Positions 12,001 to 18,000 of a stretch of 64,000 nucleotides of DNA are shown here, one piece after another. Positions within the stretch are counted from its first letter, which is position 1. The number at the start of each line of letters is the position of its first letter. This DNA comes from Podarcis vaucheri (lineage: Eukaryota). Location of the stretch: NCBI GenBank assembly GCA_965113315.1, contig OZ220368.1. One strand, 5' to 3'. Made by a program: the position numbers.

Positions 12001-15000
12001 AAACTGCACCTGCACTTCTATTTAATTGGGGTGAATAAGCATCGTTCACATTTCCTTAAAAGTAAAGGAACAGAACATACGTTAACATACGTTAAGTAGA
12101 AAACCTCACTCTCCACTGTCAAAGGCAGTTATGTCTCTGAATACCAGTTGCAGAGTATCACAGGTGGGGAGAAGGCTGTGGCACTTGGGTCCTGCATGCA
12201 GGCATCTCGCACGTATCTGCTTGGGCACTGTGAGTACAACATGCTGGATTATAGGGGCCTCTTTTTCACCTGATCTGGTAGGGCTTCTGTTACGTTATTC
12301 ACCTAGATATTTAATACACTGAGTTTTGCTTTAGAGAAACAGACCTCTCCCCCCCCCCAATATCCGATTAGTTCTTGAAGTATCCAGTTTATCATAAACC
12401 ATGTTAATCTCAATGGGGCTTCTACTAGCAGCTTGGGGCAACACAGTATAACTTTACAGATTTAAGTACCATAAAGTAAGTGTATCCAGGGATCAGGGAG
12501 CATACTTGCATCGAATGCTATGCAAGTACAGCTAACAATTCTGTTTTAGGAATAGTTAGAATGTGGGGGGGGGGACCCCTAAATGCCCGCCACCTGTTGT
12601 TACTTTTCCAATAGATTCATACAGAGCGTTCGCCTGCTCAATAGGCACAGAGATTAAACCACAGCTGCGATTTATTCACTACTGTCTTGTGCACTTCAGC
12701 AAAGGAATGTGGAATGCCATTGTTGAGAGCTCTACAATTTTGCTGGCTTTTTGCTGTGACAAGTTCGTATTAACCTATCCAAAATAGGTTTTAAAAGGAG
12801 CTGGGCACATTTTATAGGTTCTAAATTATGGTTTTAATTTCTAGAGGTACATTTCTTACACCCATCCAGTTGCTAAAGTTGTGGCCAAAGTAGCATCCTT
12901 CTCCATGCTGCTAATGTACAACAAGTAAAAATACAACATAAAATGACTTGTTTCTAGAGTACAATATCTCAAGGATGTGCCTTCACACTGAGTCTATCTA
13001 TGGCATCCCTCTGTATACAGCTTAATTGTTTTTGAAGTGCTCTCATGCAAGTGCTTTCTGAACTTGGAACTCACATCACTTTTCATGGAGGTGGGAAGAT
13101 CCAGTAAACGCAACTTAAGGCATGAGACAAGGGATGTGCTGCACAGCAATTTACTCCTGAGTTCAACCTATATAGAAGGGCAAGTACTACCTGAACAAAC
13201 CTGGCTAGTGCTTGTCTCCAGGGAAAAGGAGGTACCAAACTGCTGCTTGACTTTTGAAACTAGACCTCTGTTGTATAGCAAATAAAGAACAGGAGCATTT
13301 TACAATAGGGTACTTTCGGCTGGGAAACAAATTCATTACTGTATTGCATTTAGATTTCGTTTTATTACCGCATCTGTTGTTGCTCTTTGGAACGTAAGGC
13401 TTTAATATAATCCCTGGTAGAATTAAAAAACAGTCACCTTTTGGCTGGGAAGAGCATTTTACCTTTTCAGAAGTTGGTATCAAATATATTTGATATCAGA
13501 AGAGATTTTCCCTAGATTGGACCAAGCACAGTTAGGAAGTCATAGGTGCCCTTAAGCTGATACCCATAACTAGCAAGGCTGCAGCCACCTTAAAAGGTTA
13601 ACATCTGGTCCTTTAGAAGACTAGGAGGAGCAGAGGGCAAATAAAGTGACAAATCCTTTTTCAGCTGTAGGCATCTGCTTACGAATTTTTCATTTTCAAA
13701 AAGAAACCTGTTACTTGCATCAAGTATTTTGGTGGCATTTATATTGTCTCATAATTGTCTGACCAAGTATTACTATTACAATGAGATGTCTCATTGATCA
13801 ACAAGAAGTCCAGTGTTCTATGAAAGGTTGATTAGTGCATGGGCTGCCAATCCAATGATGGCTGGAAAATTTATAGCAGAACAGGCTGATCCAAGCACCT
13901 GTGAATCCTGCTTGGAGGAGCACTCTACAGCAACCTAGGCCATGGCTTCTGCCATTTGCAGTCCATCTTTTCACAATCATGCCCATGCAGGTTATTTACC
14001 CATGTGCTTACAATGTTGAAAGGTGAGCAGCCATATAGTAGAGGCTCAAGCCATTGCATGCGATGCAGCAGAGGTTGCAGAGGGAAGAGAAACCATGATA
14101 GATGCTCAGTCTGCTTGTCAGCTCCCTGTAATGGGAATCCAGTTGACGCAGCCGCATAAAGGACCTCTGCGGGAACCACCCAGCATCCTCTCCCAAGCCA
14201 TAGCTTTGCTCAACCAGGTGCATTTCAGCCATAATATCTGAAGTCACTTGCCCAAACCACTGAGCGTTTAGAGCAGCAACTATGACACAAATGAAGAAGA
14301 CTGTAATCTGGAAAGGAAAGATAGTTATGCTATGAACTATTTATTGTCGGGTAGCATCAGCCAGTATGTGGGGGGTTTTCATACCACATGTAGCTGCAAT
14401 CACTTTGCAGGAATAATACTCGGATTCATGGCTGGTACCTAGGCAGGTTCCTGTGGCCCCAGCAGTGCATATCATCCTTAAAATAACCCTGTGGGTTGGC
14501 CCTGCCATTGCATTTTCAAATTAGGATTAATAGGGTATATTTTGGTGCAAGATGTTCTGTTCCTGTGCCAAGTCACCAAACTGTGCTCCTTTGCTGCTCT
14601 GCCCCACCACCTACTGTCTGAATACTACCCCCTACCAGCCATGGTGGTAGTTACAGGAAACAGAAAGAGTGCCCTGCTAGTAAGTGTGGGTGGCTTCTCG
14701 GTCTGACCACTTCTTCCTAAGGCAGGCATGCCATCACAAGCGAGGCCATGTAACAAAGCGGAATGGCGGACTAACGGATGCACGTGATATTTAAAAGAGG
14801 GAGCCCACTACCTGCATGGTTTCTTCCTCATTGAGAAGTTCGCTGGGGTGACACATGGCAAATATGGTCAGGTTGATGAAAGCACAAGCTGAGCCAATGT
14901 GGAAGTAATAAGGGAAGAGGCAACTCTGAATGAATCCGAATGTATGTTGTGAGAGATTGTTGCCCATCACAAAACCTGCAAGAACAAGTGGGGCGAGCAC

Positions 15001-18000
15001 AAAGGAACAAGGTTATTTAAATGATACAAATGCTAAAAATAATAATGAATAGCTGTTTTTTTAAAAAAACATTGGATGCAAAATTAACAGACGTATACAG
15101 TTTTAGATAATCTCTTCTAGCTTCAGAATGGCTTATTTCCATAGCTGTCAACCTTCCCTTTTTTGCGGGAAATTCCCTTATTTCAGCGCCGCTATCCCGG
15201 ATTGTTAGATATCCCGTAGACTGGCCCCGGGACTGGTGAGGCTGCTGAGCCCTTACATTTTCAAATCCAAAAGTTGACAGCTATGCTTATTTCCATTGTT
15301 TATTAGGATTTTCCACACTCGGTTTTACCTTCACATCATCATCATTCAGCTGCTTGGTGTCTAGGAATATAGACTCGCCAATCCAGAAAGTAAATCTTCT
15401 TGCCAACCAGTGTTATCCCTATTTGCCCAGCCTACATCTTACTGCCAAACTAAAGTAGCCCTTTTCCCCTTTCTGAATTCACTGCATATGCCAGTCCAGA
15501 GCACTCCCATTTCTCCAAATGTCGAATCCCTCCCTAAATAAATTAACTGTGATTAATTTGGCCTTTAAGCATCTATGTGCAAAGAGTGGGGCTGTGGAAC
15601 GGTCCCAACCTACTGGCTATAAAAGTCACCCAGATCTGCATTCCCCAGAAAGTTGAAAGGAAAACCAAGTGGAGCACTTTCACTAAGGTCGAGGGATCAG
15701 CATCTGTGGACATGGTACTTCAAGAAGATAGTCGCTTGCAACTCCCTTGGCCAAACTTCAACTTGGGAGACACTCGTTTTACCTGTTCAGACACACTGAG
15801 AGGCAAAAGAAAGTTACTTCAGCTTCAAAGTAGTCAGAAATGTCCTGTCCCCTCAAAATTAAAGTGTAATTGTCACATGTGTTCTCTCTCACACCACATT
15901 TCTTAGGGGTATATGTTTTGTATTGCTGCTGTGAAGGAGTTGAATTTAAATGGACCGGCTAATAGTGCTTAACAAAATTCTCAGCCAGTGCTCCCAAGAG
16001 AGAGCTATTCTCAGACATCTGTGAACAGTGGCGCTCATAACCTCCCCTTTTGACTAGACTGATAAAAAGATGGCCAGGTCATCACACCATATGCCACCAT
16101 AAAGCCAGGAGCAGGTTTTAAAGGCTTTGGGCAACATCTGGAACCATTAATGCCAATGAGCATTTAACCAGTGATTACAGAGGGATGTGGGTTGCATTCA
16201 TAAGGACTTGGAACACAGACTTCTTATTTATTCAATTTTTTCCAGCATTTATTCCATGGTCTTCAAATTACAGTGAAGGGAAGCTTCTCTGTTACTTCAG
16301 GTAAATTCTGACCCCAGTCAATGCTTAGGCTGGGTAAAGTAGGTCTGGATTTAGCTCAAAGCAATTATTCCAGCCTACCAAAAATTAGGGCCACTTCCAA
16401 TGTCACAAATTTATGTTGTAGTCCCACAACAGCTGGAGACCCAAGTTTGGGAAACCCTGCTAGAGGAAATGTTCCATGTGTGGTGGTTGCCATGTGAGGG
16501 GCACATCAATTATTATGGAGAAATTCTTTAAATGCCCAGAGTGCTGTAACAAAGTGGATGCAAAGGGCATAATGTAAATTTTAGTATGGGCCAAAACCAT
16601 TAGAATGGTGTGGGTTAGCAGAAACTCAGACTCCTACATTATTAGTATCTAGAAACCCACAAGCAGGAATGAAAGTAATTATTCAGTAATTGTCTATAGC
16701 AGGTCCCGCAGCCATCCCACCCAGTCACCCTCCAATCACCTACCAAAAATACACTTGCTGTTACAGACCCTCAGGTGGAGAATCAACTACAAATGTAGAT
16801 CCTGACTAATAGTTGCTCACCAAAGCCACTTGCTATAACAAAAGAGTCCATACCTGAATTAATTTAAATGGTTTTACATGGTTTTTATTGCATTGTGAAA
16901 CTGCTTTGAGAGGCTTCATGGGAAGTGACTCTTAAATTGTTATGGATTGCAGCAACATGCTCCTTATTCCAAGCAGTAAAATATTTTCAGCGGGGTAACG
17001 CACCTCCTGATCTGAACAGAATACTGCATATAATATAGGAAAAGCAAACTAGGAGAGTAACAGGTTTTTTCCACTCCTTAAACTTCCAAGTACCTCAAGA
17101 TGGGTAGTTTACTTTCAGAGAAACACATAAGCTGACACTTGTCTTCCTCATCCCTTCAACCTGCAACACAAAAGGGAAACTTGGAGGCTAGTAAAAGACA
17201 AATACCGTATTCCCCAAGGGATTCTCAGATAAATTGCAATTAGGAGTACATGAGCGAGAACTCTGCATAAAGGAATCCCGCGATTATAAATTGCACTCTT
17301 TGATTCCCCTTAGTATAGCGGTAGTGACACTGTACCCTCAGTCTGAAAGAATAGCAGGTGCTTCAGCCGAGTGGGTGGCCAAAGACATTTCAAACGGGTT
17401 TTCAGCGACTAGCAAGTTGAAATATTAACTTCAAAACAAAACTTTCCTTACCACCGGTGAATGACGTTGCACTGGTGCGTTTTTCAGTGTGTCACTCAGA
17501 CTCCCCGCCGCCCAAGGCTAGAATCTCAGAAACACAAACACTAGCAAAGCTGCCGGATCAGATCCCAAAACAAGAATGGCATCTTTACCATCAAAATAAG
17601 CAGGGTCGGAAAGGATACGATCAAGAACCGGGCACAACACTCAAAAGCAGCGGATCCACACATCCCACATCAAACGGCCCCCAAGCGCGGCCAGATAATT
17701 GCATAGAAAGCATTTCGCTGTGCAAACAGACGGAACTACATCCCGGAACTGGGAAGGAAAGTCCCCCTTGCGGCGGGAATGCAGAGACAGACTGGACTGG
17801 GCGATAGGGAAAATCCTCGTGCTAGTGCTAAAAAGAAGCCAGAAACGCAAGCGGAGGGGGGCGTGTCGCGATGTGCAAGTTTGCACAGGGGGACTTTTCT
17901 CTTTTGCAAGTGCTCTTTTACCTACGACTGGAGGAAACTTCAGCCCGTACCCCAGCAATCGTGGGGAAAACGGGTGCCAATCCGAGAGGGGAGCGTCCCC

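What the first reader, a model, noticed from the sequence alone, without database searches (positions are those of the whole stretch)
14008..15713. Divergent, intact TMEM205 paralogue at a locus where human has none: candidate lost ohnologue
Seen: complete 187-aa ORF with TMEM205 motifs, clean splice sites and its own CpG island, but strongly diverged in loops and Cys-rich at the C-terminus. Known: human TMEM205 is at 19p13.2 near RAB3D/DOCK6; TTC4/FAM151A/ACOT11 are at 1p32.3, and 1p31-32 is paralogous to 19p13 (RAB3B, DOCK7, SSBP3/SSBP4). Inference: a whole-genome-duplication paralogue retained in reptiles and lost in human, functionally uncharacterised.
Basis: partly seen in the sequence, partly recalled or inferred. 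Interest (0 to 1): 0.72.

Follow-up and report, generated by a model that had tools for sequence, protein, structure and literature searches.

The report
Intact TMEM205-like gene beside TTC4
A small, intact membrane-protein gene of the TMEM205 family sits between TTC4 and FAM151A, away from the neighbours that the named TMEM205 gene has in human, and whether it is an ancient extra copy or the ordinary gene in another place could not be settled here.

Summary
The gene is real. On the minus strand, three coding exons (15713-15614, 14975-14812, 14307-14008) add up to 564 nt, which is 187 codons plus TAA. Both introns are GT-AG with pyrimidine-rich acceptors. Exon 2 alone passes Pfam's cut-off for DUF4149, the TMEM205 family (36 bits against 24.6, E 8.5e-9).

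Two parts of the observation need correction.
- No CpG island lies inside the interval. The nearest unique CpG-rich stretch is at 17401-18300, 1.7-2.6 kb upstream of the ATG, and nothing shows which gene it serves.
- The Cys-rich C-terminus is the fourth hydrophobic segment. Sulfur residues there are reported as functional in human TMEM205 (PMC9333335), so this may be a family trait and not a sign of divergence.

The ohnologue reading could not be tested. Only the 64-kb window is held, the protein databases were closed, and no vertebrate collection was on hand. The 10 literature searches made found nothing on a second vertebrate TMEM205. The spliced protein was not joined; all searches were exon by exon.

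Verdict: a new member of a known family. Ancient-paralogue status is plausible (about 0.45) but unproven.

The parts
15614..15713 (-). Coding exon 1 (100 nt). ATG at 15713-15711, then 33 codons plus the first base of a split codon. Holds the first hydrophobic segment.
   Evidence: Sequence and translation. ATG context ACCATGT with an in-frame TGA 9 nt upstream; donor CCA|GTAGGT. Hydrophobic stretch at residues 8-27. No Pfam hit when scanned alone.
14976..15613 (-). Intron 1 (638 nt, GT...AG). Contains a MITE-like insert at 15140-15285.
   Evidence: Inverted arms of 16 nt, 94% complementary, 114 nt apart. The arm motif occurs only at these two places in the window: 2 matches against 0.10 expected.
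14812..14975 (-). Coding exon 2 (164 nt: the last two bases of the split codon plus 54 codons). This is the DUF4149 core and holds the second hydrophobic segment, with Cys at exon residues 18, 30 and 41.
   Evidence: PF13664 DUF4149, E 8.5e-9, 36.0 bits against a cut-off of 24.6, profile positions 20-68 of 102. Acceptor and donor. Hydropathy and Cys positions.
14308..14811 (-). Intron 2 (504 nt, GT...AG).
14008..14307 (-). Coding exon 3 (99 codons plus TAA). Holds the third hydrophobic segment, a polar middle part, and a fourth hydrophobic segment with the run C-x2-C-C-x2-C.
   Evidence: Translation. Hydrophobic stretches at residues 1-19 and 73-93; Cys at 7, 77, 80, 81, 84. No Pfam hit alone. 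Atlas: a DUF4149 cluster appears only at rank 3, score 0.76. Single-sequence AlphaFold2: helices 2-35 and 48-98, mean pLDDT 61.4.
13361..13406 (-). Candidate polyadenylation signals: ATTAAA starting at 13406 and AATAAA starting at 13366, which are 602 and 642 nt past the stop.
   Evidence: Motif scan. Use of either signal is inferred, not shown.
17401..18300 (.). Nearest unique CpG-island-like stretch, 1.7-2.6 kb upstream of the ATG. Candidate promoter and non-coding first exon of this gene, possibly shared with FAM151A.
   Evidence: GC 0.564, CpG o/e 0.70. No other copy in the window. 0 of 10 ORFs tested between 17.4 and 24.2 kb match Pfam. Consensus-like GT donors on the minus strand are seen by eye. 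Which gene owns it is inferred.
6117..11856 (+). Neighbour TTC4, converging tail to tail on the TMEM205-like gene. Its last coding exon ends about 2.15 kb from the TMEM205-like stop.
   Evidence: TPR_1/TPR_2 hits at 6117-6449 and 8274-8669, below the gathering score. Cns1/TTC4 Wheel hit at 8729-8971, 31 bits against a cut-off of 27. The later exons at 9757-9894, 10724-10816 and 11737-11856 were read by eye only.
31316..35219 (+). Neighbour FAM151/Menorin gene, taken as FAM151A from its position beside ACOT11. A probable first coding exon lies near 26 kb.
   Evidence: PF10223 Menorin hits with E 1.1e-16, 1e-17 and 3.8e-28 on three exon ORFs. The exon at 35019-35219 and the N-terminal ORF at 25822-26328 were read by eye. 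FAM151A was not told apart from FAM151B by any test.
39556..53364 (-). Neighbour ACOT11. Its START-domain exons are at 39556-40242 and a hotdog exon near 53 kb.
   Evidence: The only PDB match is the ACOT11 START domain (3fo5/6vvq), E 6.6e-31, with 29 of 47 and 32 of 45 residues identical. A weak 4HBT hit, E 0.007, falls at 52741-53364.

Best explanation
This is a real, intact, spliced gene for a 187-residue membrane protein of the DUF4149/TMEM205 family, with four hydrophobic segments. It lies tail to tail with TTC4 and upstream of FAM151A and ACOT11.

Origin (inferred). The most likely origin is an old paralogue of the RAB3D-linked TMEM205, dating from the early vertebrate genome duplications. 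On this reading the window's lineage kept it at the region equivalent to human 1p32, and the human lineage lost it.

Mechanism (inferred from the family). It probably works as human TMEM205 is reported to work: a small membrane protein of the plasma or vesicular membrane whose sulfur-bearing residues in the second and fourth helices bind and pass on soft, thiophilic species. Pt(II) drugs are the known case; the natural substrate is unknown.

Feature specific to this copy. The fourth hydrophobic segment carries Cys at i, i+3, i+4 and i+7. On an alpha-helix these would line one face.

Shown: the gene model, the family match and the neighbours. Inferred: topology, promoter, function and age of the duplication.
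For: GENE MODEL
- 100 + 164 + 300 nt gives 187 codons plus a stop, with canonical splice sites and an ATG with A at -3.
- GC at third codon positions is 0.56-0.58, against 0.41 and 0.48 in the introns.

FAMILY
- Exon 2 alone scores 36.0 bits against PF13664, cut-off 24.6.
- The length of 187 aa is close to the human 189 aa (PMC12530797 passage).
- There are four hydrophobic stretches, against '4-TMH' for the human protein (PMC9333335 passage).
- Cys/Met residues sit in the second and fourth stretches. Sulfur residues in TMH2 and TMH4 are reported to matter for cisplatin resistance (PMC9333335 passage citing Gallenito 2020).

NOT THE CANONICAL LOCUS
- The neighbours are TTC4, Menorin/FAM151 and ACOT11. 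The neighbours of human TMEM205 are RAB3D, CCDC159 and others (PMC5237311 legend).

NOT A RETROCOPY
- It has two introns.

PARALOGY OF THE TWO REGIONS
- ANGPTL8 inside DOCK6 is said to have arisen by duplication, mirroring ANGPTL3 inside DOCK7 (PMC4172915 passage).
- The further pairs RAB3D/RAB3B and SSBP4/SSBP3, and the chromosome bands 19p13.2 and 1p31 for the DOCK6 and DOCK7 loci, are my recall.

A CANONICAL COPY IN A LIZARD IS LIKELY
- Eight of the nine ANGPTL8-flanking genes, a list that includes TMEM205, stay linked on Anolis chromosome 2 (PMC5237311 passage).
Against: - No test of paralogy was possible. There was no second copy to compare, no tree and no cross-species synteny.
- The window's species is unknown.
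- The one gene missing from Anolis chromosome 2 in PMC5237311 could be TMEM205 itself; the figure is not held.
- Frog transcriptomes gave TMEM205 as a single-copy orthogroup (PMC11342244 passage). An old paralogue would therefore have to be lost, unexpressed or separately clustered in frogs.
- None of the 10 searches found a paper on a second vertebrate TMEM205.
- Exons 1 and 3 give no Pfam match on their own.
- Expression, promoter and purifying selection are untested.
Confidence: 0.45

Rival explanations
1. It is the only TMEM205 gene of this genome and the true orthologue of human TMEM205. The gene simply sits in another place because of a translocation in one of the two lineages.
For: The protein has the same length class (187 against 189 aa), the same domain, the same count of four hydrophobic segments and sulfur-rich second and fourth segments. 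Nothing in the window shows a second copy. Frogs gave a single-copy orthogroup. No paper found describes two copies.
Against: Eight of the nine genes of the canonical block, a list that includes TMEM205, stay linked on Anolis chromosome 2 and on gar LG6 (PMC5237311), so a canonical copy probably exists in at least one lizard. A single small gene landing by chance in a region held to be paralogous to its source would be a coincidence.
Confidence: 0.28
2. It is a younger DNA-level duplicate of the canonical TMEM205, made within sauropsids or a narrower group, that happened to insert between TTC4 and FAM151A.
For: Introns are kept, as a DNA-level copy would keep them. The gene is compact, with 1.7 kb of coding span. 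The interval holds mobile elements.
Against: No flanking duplicated sequence, no fragments of RAB3D or CCDC159, and no repeats bracketing the gene were seen in the self-comparison of the window. The site lies in the region held to be paralogous to 19p13.2, which a random insertion would seldom hit. This last point is inference, partly from recall.
Confidence: 0.15
3. It is a non-functional relic: still an open frame, but no longer expressed or constrained.
For: No promoter is evident next to the ATG. Expression is untested. Exons 1 and 3 are not recognised by Pfam on their own. TMEM205 was reported under relaxed selection in some frogs.
Against: All 187 codons are open across three exons. All four splice sites are canonical, the ATG context is good, and the family features are kept.
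Confidence: 0.07
4. It is a chance open frame and not a gene.
For: Open stretches of 110 aa or more are not rare in the window: 60 of 6168.
Against: The Pfam match of exon 2 has E 8.5e-9 and lies above the curated cut-off. Three frames join in phase through canonical sites to give the family's length.
Confidence: 0.01

Closest known systems
Human TMEM205 (19p13.2, 189 aa; Pfam DUF4149; TCDB 9.A.55.1)
   Same: Same Pfam family. Nearly the same length, 187 against 189 aa. Four hydrophobic segments against '4-TMH'. Sulfur-bearing residues in the second and fourth segments.
   Different: The neighbours are TTC4/FAM151/ACOT11, not RAB3D/CCDC159. Sequence identity to the human protein was not measured. 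The fourth segment here has a tight C-x2-C-C-x2-C run; whether that is denser than in canonical TMEM205 was not tested.
DUF4149 family at large (PF13664)
   Same: Exon 2 matches profile positions 20-68 of 102. The nearest named Atlas cluster to exon 3 is a eukaryotic DUF4149 cluster of 1003 members, 78% of them with PF13664, score 0.76. That score is a lead only.
   Different: The family has no solved structure among the PDB sequences for either exon peptide at E up to 1, and no known natural substrate (PMC9333335). The family name therefore brings no established mechanism.
ANGPTL9, as a precedent for a gene kept by non-mammalian vertebrates and absent from mammals
   Different: It is an unrelated family. 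For ANGPTL9 the cross-species survey was done; for this gene it was not.

Membership tests
DUF4149 / TMEM205 family (PF13664) | Match to the Pfam model at or above its gathering score | tested here: met
   Exon 2 peptide alone: 36.0 bits against 24.6, E 8.5e-9. Exons 1 and 3 alone give no match at E up to 10. The whole protein was not scored because the exons were not joined.
DUF4149 / TMEM205 family (PF13664) | Small protein of about 190 residues with four transmembrane helices (PMC9333335, PMC12530797) | tested here: met
   187 codons by arithmetic. Four hydrophobic stretches in a per-exon Kyte-Doolittle scan. This is a simple scan, not a dedicated topology predictor.
DUF4149 / TMEM205 family (PF13664) | Sulfur-containing residues in TMH2 and TMH4 (reported as functional in human TMEM205; PMC9333335 citing Gallenito 2020) | tested here: met
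   Second segment: Cys at exon 2 residues 30 and 41 and Met at 40. Fourth segment: Cys at exon 3 residues 77, 80, 81 and 84 and Met at 92. Position-by-position equivalence with the human residues was not tested; the primary paper is not held.
Orthologue of human TMEM205 (the RAB3D-linked gene) | Lies in the conserved block CARM1-LDLR-KANK2-DOCK6-RAB3D-TMEM205-CCDC159-LPPR2-SWSAP1 | tested here: not met
   Within the 64 kb the neighbours are TTC4, Menorin/FAM151 and ACOT11. The block is taken from PMC5237311.
Orthologue of human TMEM205 (the RAB3D-linked gene) | Nests in the canonical TMEM205 clade of a vertebrate DUF4149 tree | not testable with these tools
   No vertebrate TMEM205 sequences could be obtained.
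Ohnologue (whole-genome-duplication paralogue) of TMEM205 | A second family member elsewhere in the same genome | not testable with these tools
   Only the window is held. Within the window there is no second copy: for each of the three exon peptides the next-best tblastn hit has E of 0.94 or more.
Ohnologue (whole-genome-duplication paralogue) of TMEM205 | The two loci lie in chromosome regions that are paralogous from the vertebrate duplications | tested here: inconclusive
   The window's locus identity was tested. Paralogy rests on one paper passage, DOCK6/ANGPTL8 against DOCK7/ANGPTL3, and on my recall of further pairs. No analysis was done here.
Ohnologue (whole-genome-duplication paralogue) of TMEM205 | The split predates the vertebrate classes, and orthologues sit at TTC4-FAM151A in other classes | not testable with these tools
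   No vertebrate genome collection was available.
Processed retrocopy | Intronless copy with a poly(A) remnant | tested here: not met
   Two GT-AG introns of 638 and 504 nt interrupt the coding sequence.

The most novel reading that the evidence does not exclude
This is a second, ancient vertebrate TMEM205 gene (a 'TMEM205B') from the early vertebrate genome duplications. It was kept at the TTC4-FAM151A interval in sauropsids and lost in the mammalian lineage, perhaps at the breakpoint of an inversion of the MROH7-TTC4 block. In the window TTC4 points towards FAM151A. As I recall the human map, it points away, with MROH7 in between. The one-faced Cys ladder in its fourth helix would mark a specialised handler of thiophilic metals, and comparing it with TMEM205 could reveal the family's natural substrate.
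Probability: 0.35. Interest if true: 0.5.

Novelty: new member of a known kind. Interest (0 to 1): 0.35.

Why it matters
TMEM205 is an orphan. It is linked to resistance against platinum drugs, but its natural substrate and mechanism are unknown (PMC9333335).

A second, independently evolving family member would show which residues the family cannot change. Here the sulfur-bearing residues of helices 2 and 4 are kept and even concentrated. It would also give a natural contrast for functional assays.

As an evolutionary case it would add one more gene to the set retained by non-mammalian vertebrates and lost in mammals. That is useful for reconstructing the 1p32/19p13 paralogous regions but not surprising in itself.

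If it turns out to be the lineage's only TMEM205 in a new place, the finding is ordinary.

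Tried and rejected
SEARCHES THAT GAVE LITTLE OR NOTHING
- Pfam on exons 1 and 3 alone: no family at E up to 10.
- ESM Atlas on the exon 3 peptide: the two best clusters are unnamed (0.89, 0.85). A DUF4149 cluster comes only third, at 0.76. All are below the tool's 0.9 line, so this is a lead and not evidence.
- AlphaFold2 on exon 3 alone, single sequence: mean pLDDT 61.4, pTM 0.32, two long helices. It was too weak for a fold search, so none was run.
- PDB sequence search with the exon 2 and exon 3 peptides: 0 hits each at E up to 1.
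- Rfam on the whole window at gathering scores: 0 matches.
- tblastn of the three exon peptides against the window for a tandem or degraded second copy: only self hits.
- Pfam on 10 ORFs between 17.4 and 24.2 kb, to see whether another gene owns the CpG-rich stretch: 0 of 10 matched.

- TMEM205 + paralog: 17 papers, none about a TMEM205 paralogue. I saw the listing and passages of two papers.
- 'TMEM205-like', 'tmem205l' or 'transmembrane protein 205-like': 3 papers (abalone, newt, corn borer), listing only.
- TMEM205 + TTC4: 2 unrelated papers.
- Any two of TMEM205, FAM151A, ACOT11, MROH7, PARS2: 22 papers, 0 of which hold TMEM205.
- DUF4149: 7 papers.
- TMEM205 alone: 191 papers, 15 listed.
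- TMEM205 + reptil: 3 papers, none bearing on this.
- TMEM205 + ohnolog: 0 papers.
- DOCK6 + DOCK7 + ANGPTL8 + ANGPTL3 + duplication: 3 papers; passages of one were read, on the paralogy of the two regions.
- TMEM205 + chicken: 12 papers, none on the locus. Passages of two were read.
- Gallenito 2020 and Shen 2010 are not held. The sulfur-residue statement is therefore second-hand, from PMC9333335.

READINGS REJECTED
- Chance ORF.
- Retrocopy, because the gene has introns.
- A CpG island inside the interval.
- The CpG-like stretches at 901-1800 and 23001-23500 as promoters. They are two copies of a GC-rich interspersed repeat, 84-86% identical.

LEFT OUT
- Joining the three exons. As a result there is no whole-protein Pfam score, no whole-protein fold and no full-length identity.
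It holds only bacteria and archaea and cannot bear on vertebrate paralogy.

Full report
WHAT IS THERE

Read on the minus strand, the interval 14008-15713 holds three open stretches that join in frame.
- Exon 1 runs from the ATG at 15713 to 15614. It is 100 nt: 33 codons plus one base.
- Exon 2 runs from 14975 to 14812. It is 164 nt: two bases plus 54 codons.
- Exon 3 runs from 14307 to the TAA ending at 14008. It is 99 codons plus the stop.
- Together they make 564 nt, or 187 codons and a stop.
- The split codon reads A|GT, which is Ser.

The ATG has A at -3 and an in-frame TGA 9 nt upstream. The two introns (638 and 504 nt) begin GTAGGT and GTAGTG, and each ends in a pyrimidine-rich tract plus CAG. 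If intron 1 were retained, the frame would stop after 14 more codons, so splicing is required. GC at third codon positions is 0.56-0.58, against 0.41 and 0.48 in the introns.

There is therefore no whole-protein score, fold or identity in this report.

IS IT MORE THAN CHANCE?

An open frame alone would not be. In the window, 60 of 6168 stop-to-stop segments are 110 aa or longer. What settles it is the exon 2 peptide (54 aa). By itself it matches Pfam PF13664 (DUF4149, the TMEM205 family) with E 8.5e-9 and 36.0 bits, against a curated cut-off of 24.6, over profile positions 20-68 of 102. The flanking exons join to it in phase through canonical sites and give the family's length.

Exons 1 and 3 on their own match nothing in Pfam at E up to 10. 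For exon 3 the ESM Atlas gave two unnamed eukaryotic clusters (0.89, 0.85) and a DUF4149 cluster third at 0.76. By the tool's own scale that is only a lead. Neither exon peptide has a relative among PDB sequences at E up to 1. A single-sequence AlphaFold2 model of exon 3 was weak (mean pLDDT 61.4; helices 2-35 and 48-98), and I did not take it further.

SHAPE OF THE PROTEIN

A per-exon hydropathy scan finds four hydrophobic stretches: one in exon 1, one in exon 2 and two in exon 3 (residues 1-19 and 73-93), with a polar stretch between the last two. This fits the '4-TMH' description of human TMEM205 (PMC9333335, passage) and its length of 189 aa (PMC12530797, passage).

Cys sits at residues 77, 80, 81 and 84 of exon 3, which by arithmetic are residues 165, 168, 169 and 172 of the protein. 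These residues lie inside the fourth hydrophobic stretch. The spacing i, i+3, i+4, i+7 would put all four on one face of a helix; this is my inference.

PMC9333335, citing Gallenito et al. 2020, says that mutating sulfur-containing residues of human TMEM205, especially in TMH2 and TMH4, weakens cisplatin resistance. I could not read the primary paper. Sulfur-rich second and fourth helices are therefore more likely a family trait than a mark of divergence.

How far the loops have diverged from canonical TMEM205 could not be measured, because no reference sequence could be brought in.

SURROUNDINGS

- TTC4 lies to the left on the plus strand. TPR matches fall at 6117-6449 and 8274-8669, below the gathering scores. 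A Cns1/TTC4 Wheel match falls at 8729-8971, 31 bits against a cut-off of 27. By eye, its last coding exon ends near 11856. The two genes therefore converge with about 2.15 kb between their stops.
- A Menorin/FAM151 gene lies to the right on the plus strand. Three exon ORFs between 31316 and 34086 score E 1e-16 to 4e-28. I take it for FAM151A from its position but did not test it against FAM151B.
- ACOT11 follows on the minus strand. An ORF at 39556-40242 matches only the ACOT11 START domain in the PDB (E 6.6e-31), with 29 of 47 and 32 of 45 residues identical. A weak hotdog match lies near 53 kb.

At 62-71% identity to a PDB chain that I recall as human, I do not take the window for human. The window has no N.

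There is no second copy of any of the three exons in the window; the next-best tblastn E is 0.94 or more.

THE CpG ISLAND

This part of the observation does not hold as written. None of the seven 500-nt windows that overlap the interval reaches both GC 0.5 and CpG o/e 0.6. The one local rise (o/e 0.63 at 14751-15250) overlaps a 146-nt MITE-like insert in intron 1 with 16-nt inverted ends.

The nearest island-like stretch is 17401-18300 (GC 0.56, o/e 0.70), 1.7-2.6 kb upstream of the ATG.
- It has no other copy in the window. By contrast, the island-like stretches at 901-1800 and 23001-23500 are two copies of a GC-rich interspersed repeat.
- 0 of 10 ORFs tested between 17.4 and 24.2 kb match Pfam.
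- By eye it contains consensus-like donors on the minus strand.

A non-coding first exon there is plausible. But it could equally serve FAM151A, whose probable first coding exon lies near 26 kb, or both genes. No transcript data were available.

The next stretch, 18701-19300, holds a 60-nt unit repeated 3.3 times.

PARALOGUE OR ORTHOLOGUE?

Only the window is held. The remaining collection holds bacteria and archaea only.

What bears on it comes from papers.
- For 'human has no other': TMEM205 is the sole human member of its group in a proteome-wide survey (PMC9333335), and it maps to 19p13.2 (PMC12530797).
- For a canonical copy in a lizard: of the nine genes flanking human ANGPTL8, among them RAB3D, TMEM205 and CCDC159, eight keep linkage on Anolis chromosome 2 and on gar LG6 (PMC5237311). 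Which one is missing is shown only in a figure that is not held, and I do not know the window's species.
- For paralogy of the two regions: ANGPTL8 inside DOCK6 is held to be a duplicate of the ANGPTL3-in-DOCK7 arrangement (PMC4172915).
- Against a widely kept old paralogue: TMEM205 was a single-copy orthogroup in frog transcriptomes (PMC11342244).
- None of the 10 searches found a paper on a second vertebrate TMEM205. The supplements of PMC9333335, which list family members in chicken and zebrafish, could bear on this and were closed.

MOST LIKELY READING AND ITS RIVALS

That this is a real, intact DUF4149/TMEM205-family gene I hold at about 0.95. On its origin:
- Ancient paralogue: about 0.45.
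- The lineage's only TMEM205, in a new place: about 0.28.
- A younger DNA-level duplicate: about 0.15.
- A decaying relic: about 0.07.
- A chance ORF: about 0.01.

A retrocopy is excluded by the introns.

For function I commit to the family's reported behaviour: a small protein of the plasma or vesicular membrane that binds and helps export soft, thiophilic species through sulfur ligands in helices 2 and 4. Vesicular and exosomal routes and RAB8 co-localisation are reported for the human protein (PMC12530797; PMC9333335). All of this is inferred from family membership and residue content. Nothing about function was shown here.

SEEN IN PASSING, AND POSSIBLY RELEVANT

In the window TTC4 is transcribed towards FAM151A, with this gene in between. 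As I recall the human map, TTC4 is transcribed away from FAM151A with MROH7 between them. If that recall is right, the TMEM205-like gene sits where one end of an inversion would fall, which would offer a simple route to its loss. This is recall plus inference and was not tested.

VERDICT

The gene, motifs, splice sites and Cys run are confirmed. The CpG island inside the interval is not. The divergence was not measurable.

The family and the unusual locus are confirmed. Ohnologue status remains open.

It is a new member of a known family and of moderate interest.

Noticed in passing
window 15140-15285 (intron 1 of the TMEM205-like gene): MITE-like insert of 146 nt with 16-nt terminal inverted repeats, 94% complementary. 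The arm motif occurs nowhere else in the window: 2 matches against 0.10 expected. It overlaps the only local rise in CpG inside the finding's interval.
   Followed up: partly
window 1039-1557 and 23010-23435: Two copies of a GC-rich interspersed repeat, 84-86% identical over about 430 nt. They produce the CpG-island-like signals at 901-1800 and 23001-23500, so those stretches are probably not promoters. A 20-nt unit repeated 3.1 times lies at 23051-23111.
   Followed up: partly
window 18833-19408: GC-rich block with a 60-nt unit repeated 3.3 times (18990-19189, 90% matches) and several 17-19-nt inverted arms. It makes up much of the CpG-island-like stretch at 18701-19300.
   Followed up: partly
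window 39556-40242 (minus strand): Two ACOT11 START-domain exons lie in one uninterrupted 229-codon open frame, so the intron between them happens to carry no stop. They are 29 of 47 and 32 of 45 residues identical to the PDB chain 3fo5. Whether ACOT11's 3' part overlaps the FAM151 gene on the other strand was not traced, because that gene's second-half exons were not found.
   Followed up: partly
window 3344-11856 (TTC4) relative to 26000-56300 (FAM151, ACOT11): TTC4 is transcribed towards FAM151A, and no large HEAT-repeat gene lies between them. As I recall the human map, MROH7 and TTC4 both point away from FAM151A. This suggests an inversion of that block in one lineage, with the TMEM205-like gene at its edge. 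It rests on recall and was not tested.
   Followed up: no
window 9354-9512, 28522-28582, 28727-28829, 63217-63354: Self-reverse-complementary stretches of 62-166 nt, 76-94% identical. They are hairpin-forming repeats, possibly further MITEs. The first lies in a TTC4 intron.
   Followed up: no
window 33741-33834 and 35313-35414: A direct repeat of about 100 nt, 90% identical, flanks two FAM151 exons. It is probably an intronic short interspersed element.
   Followed up: no
window 24130-24164, 25011-25045, 59561-59594: (TG)n/(GT)n microsatellites of about 17 units.
   Followed up: no
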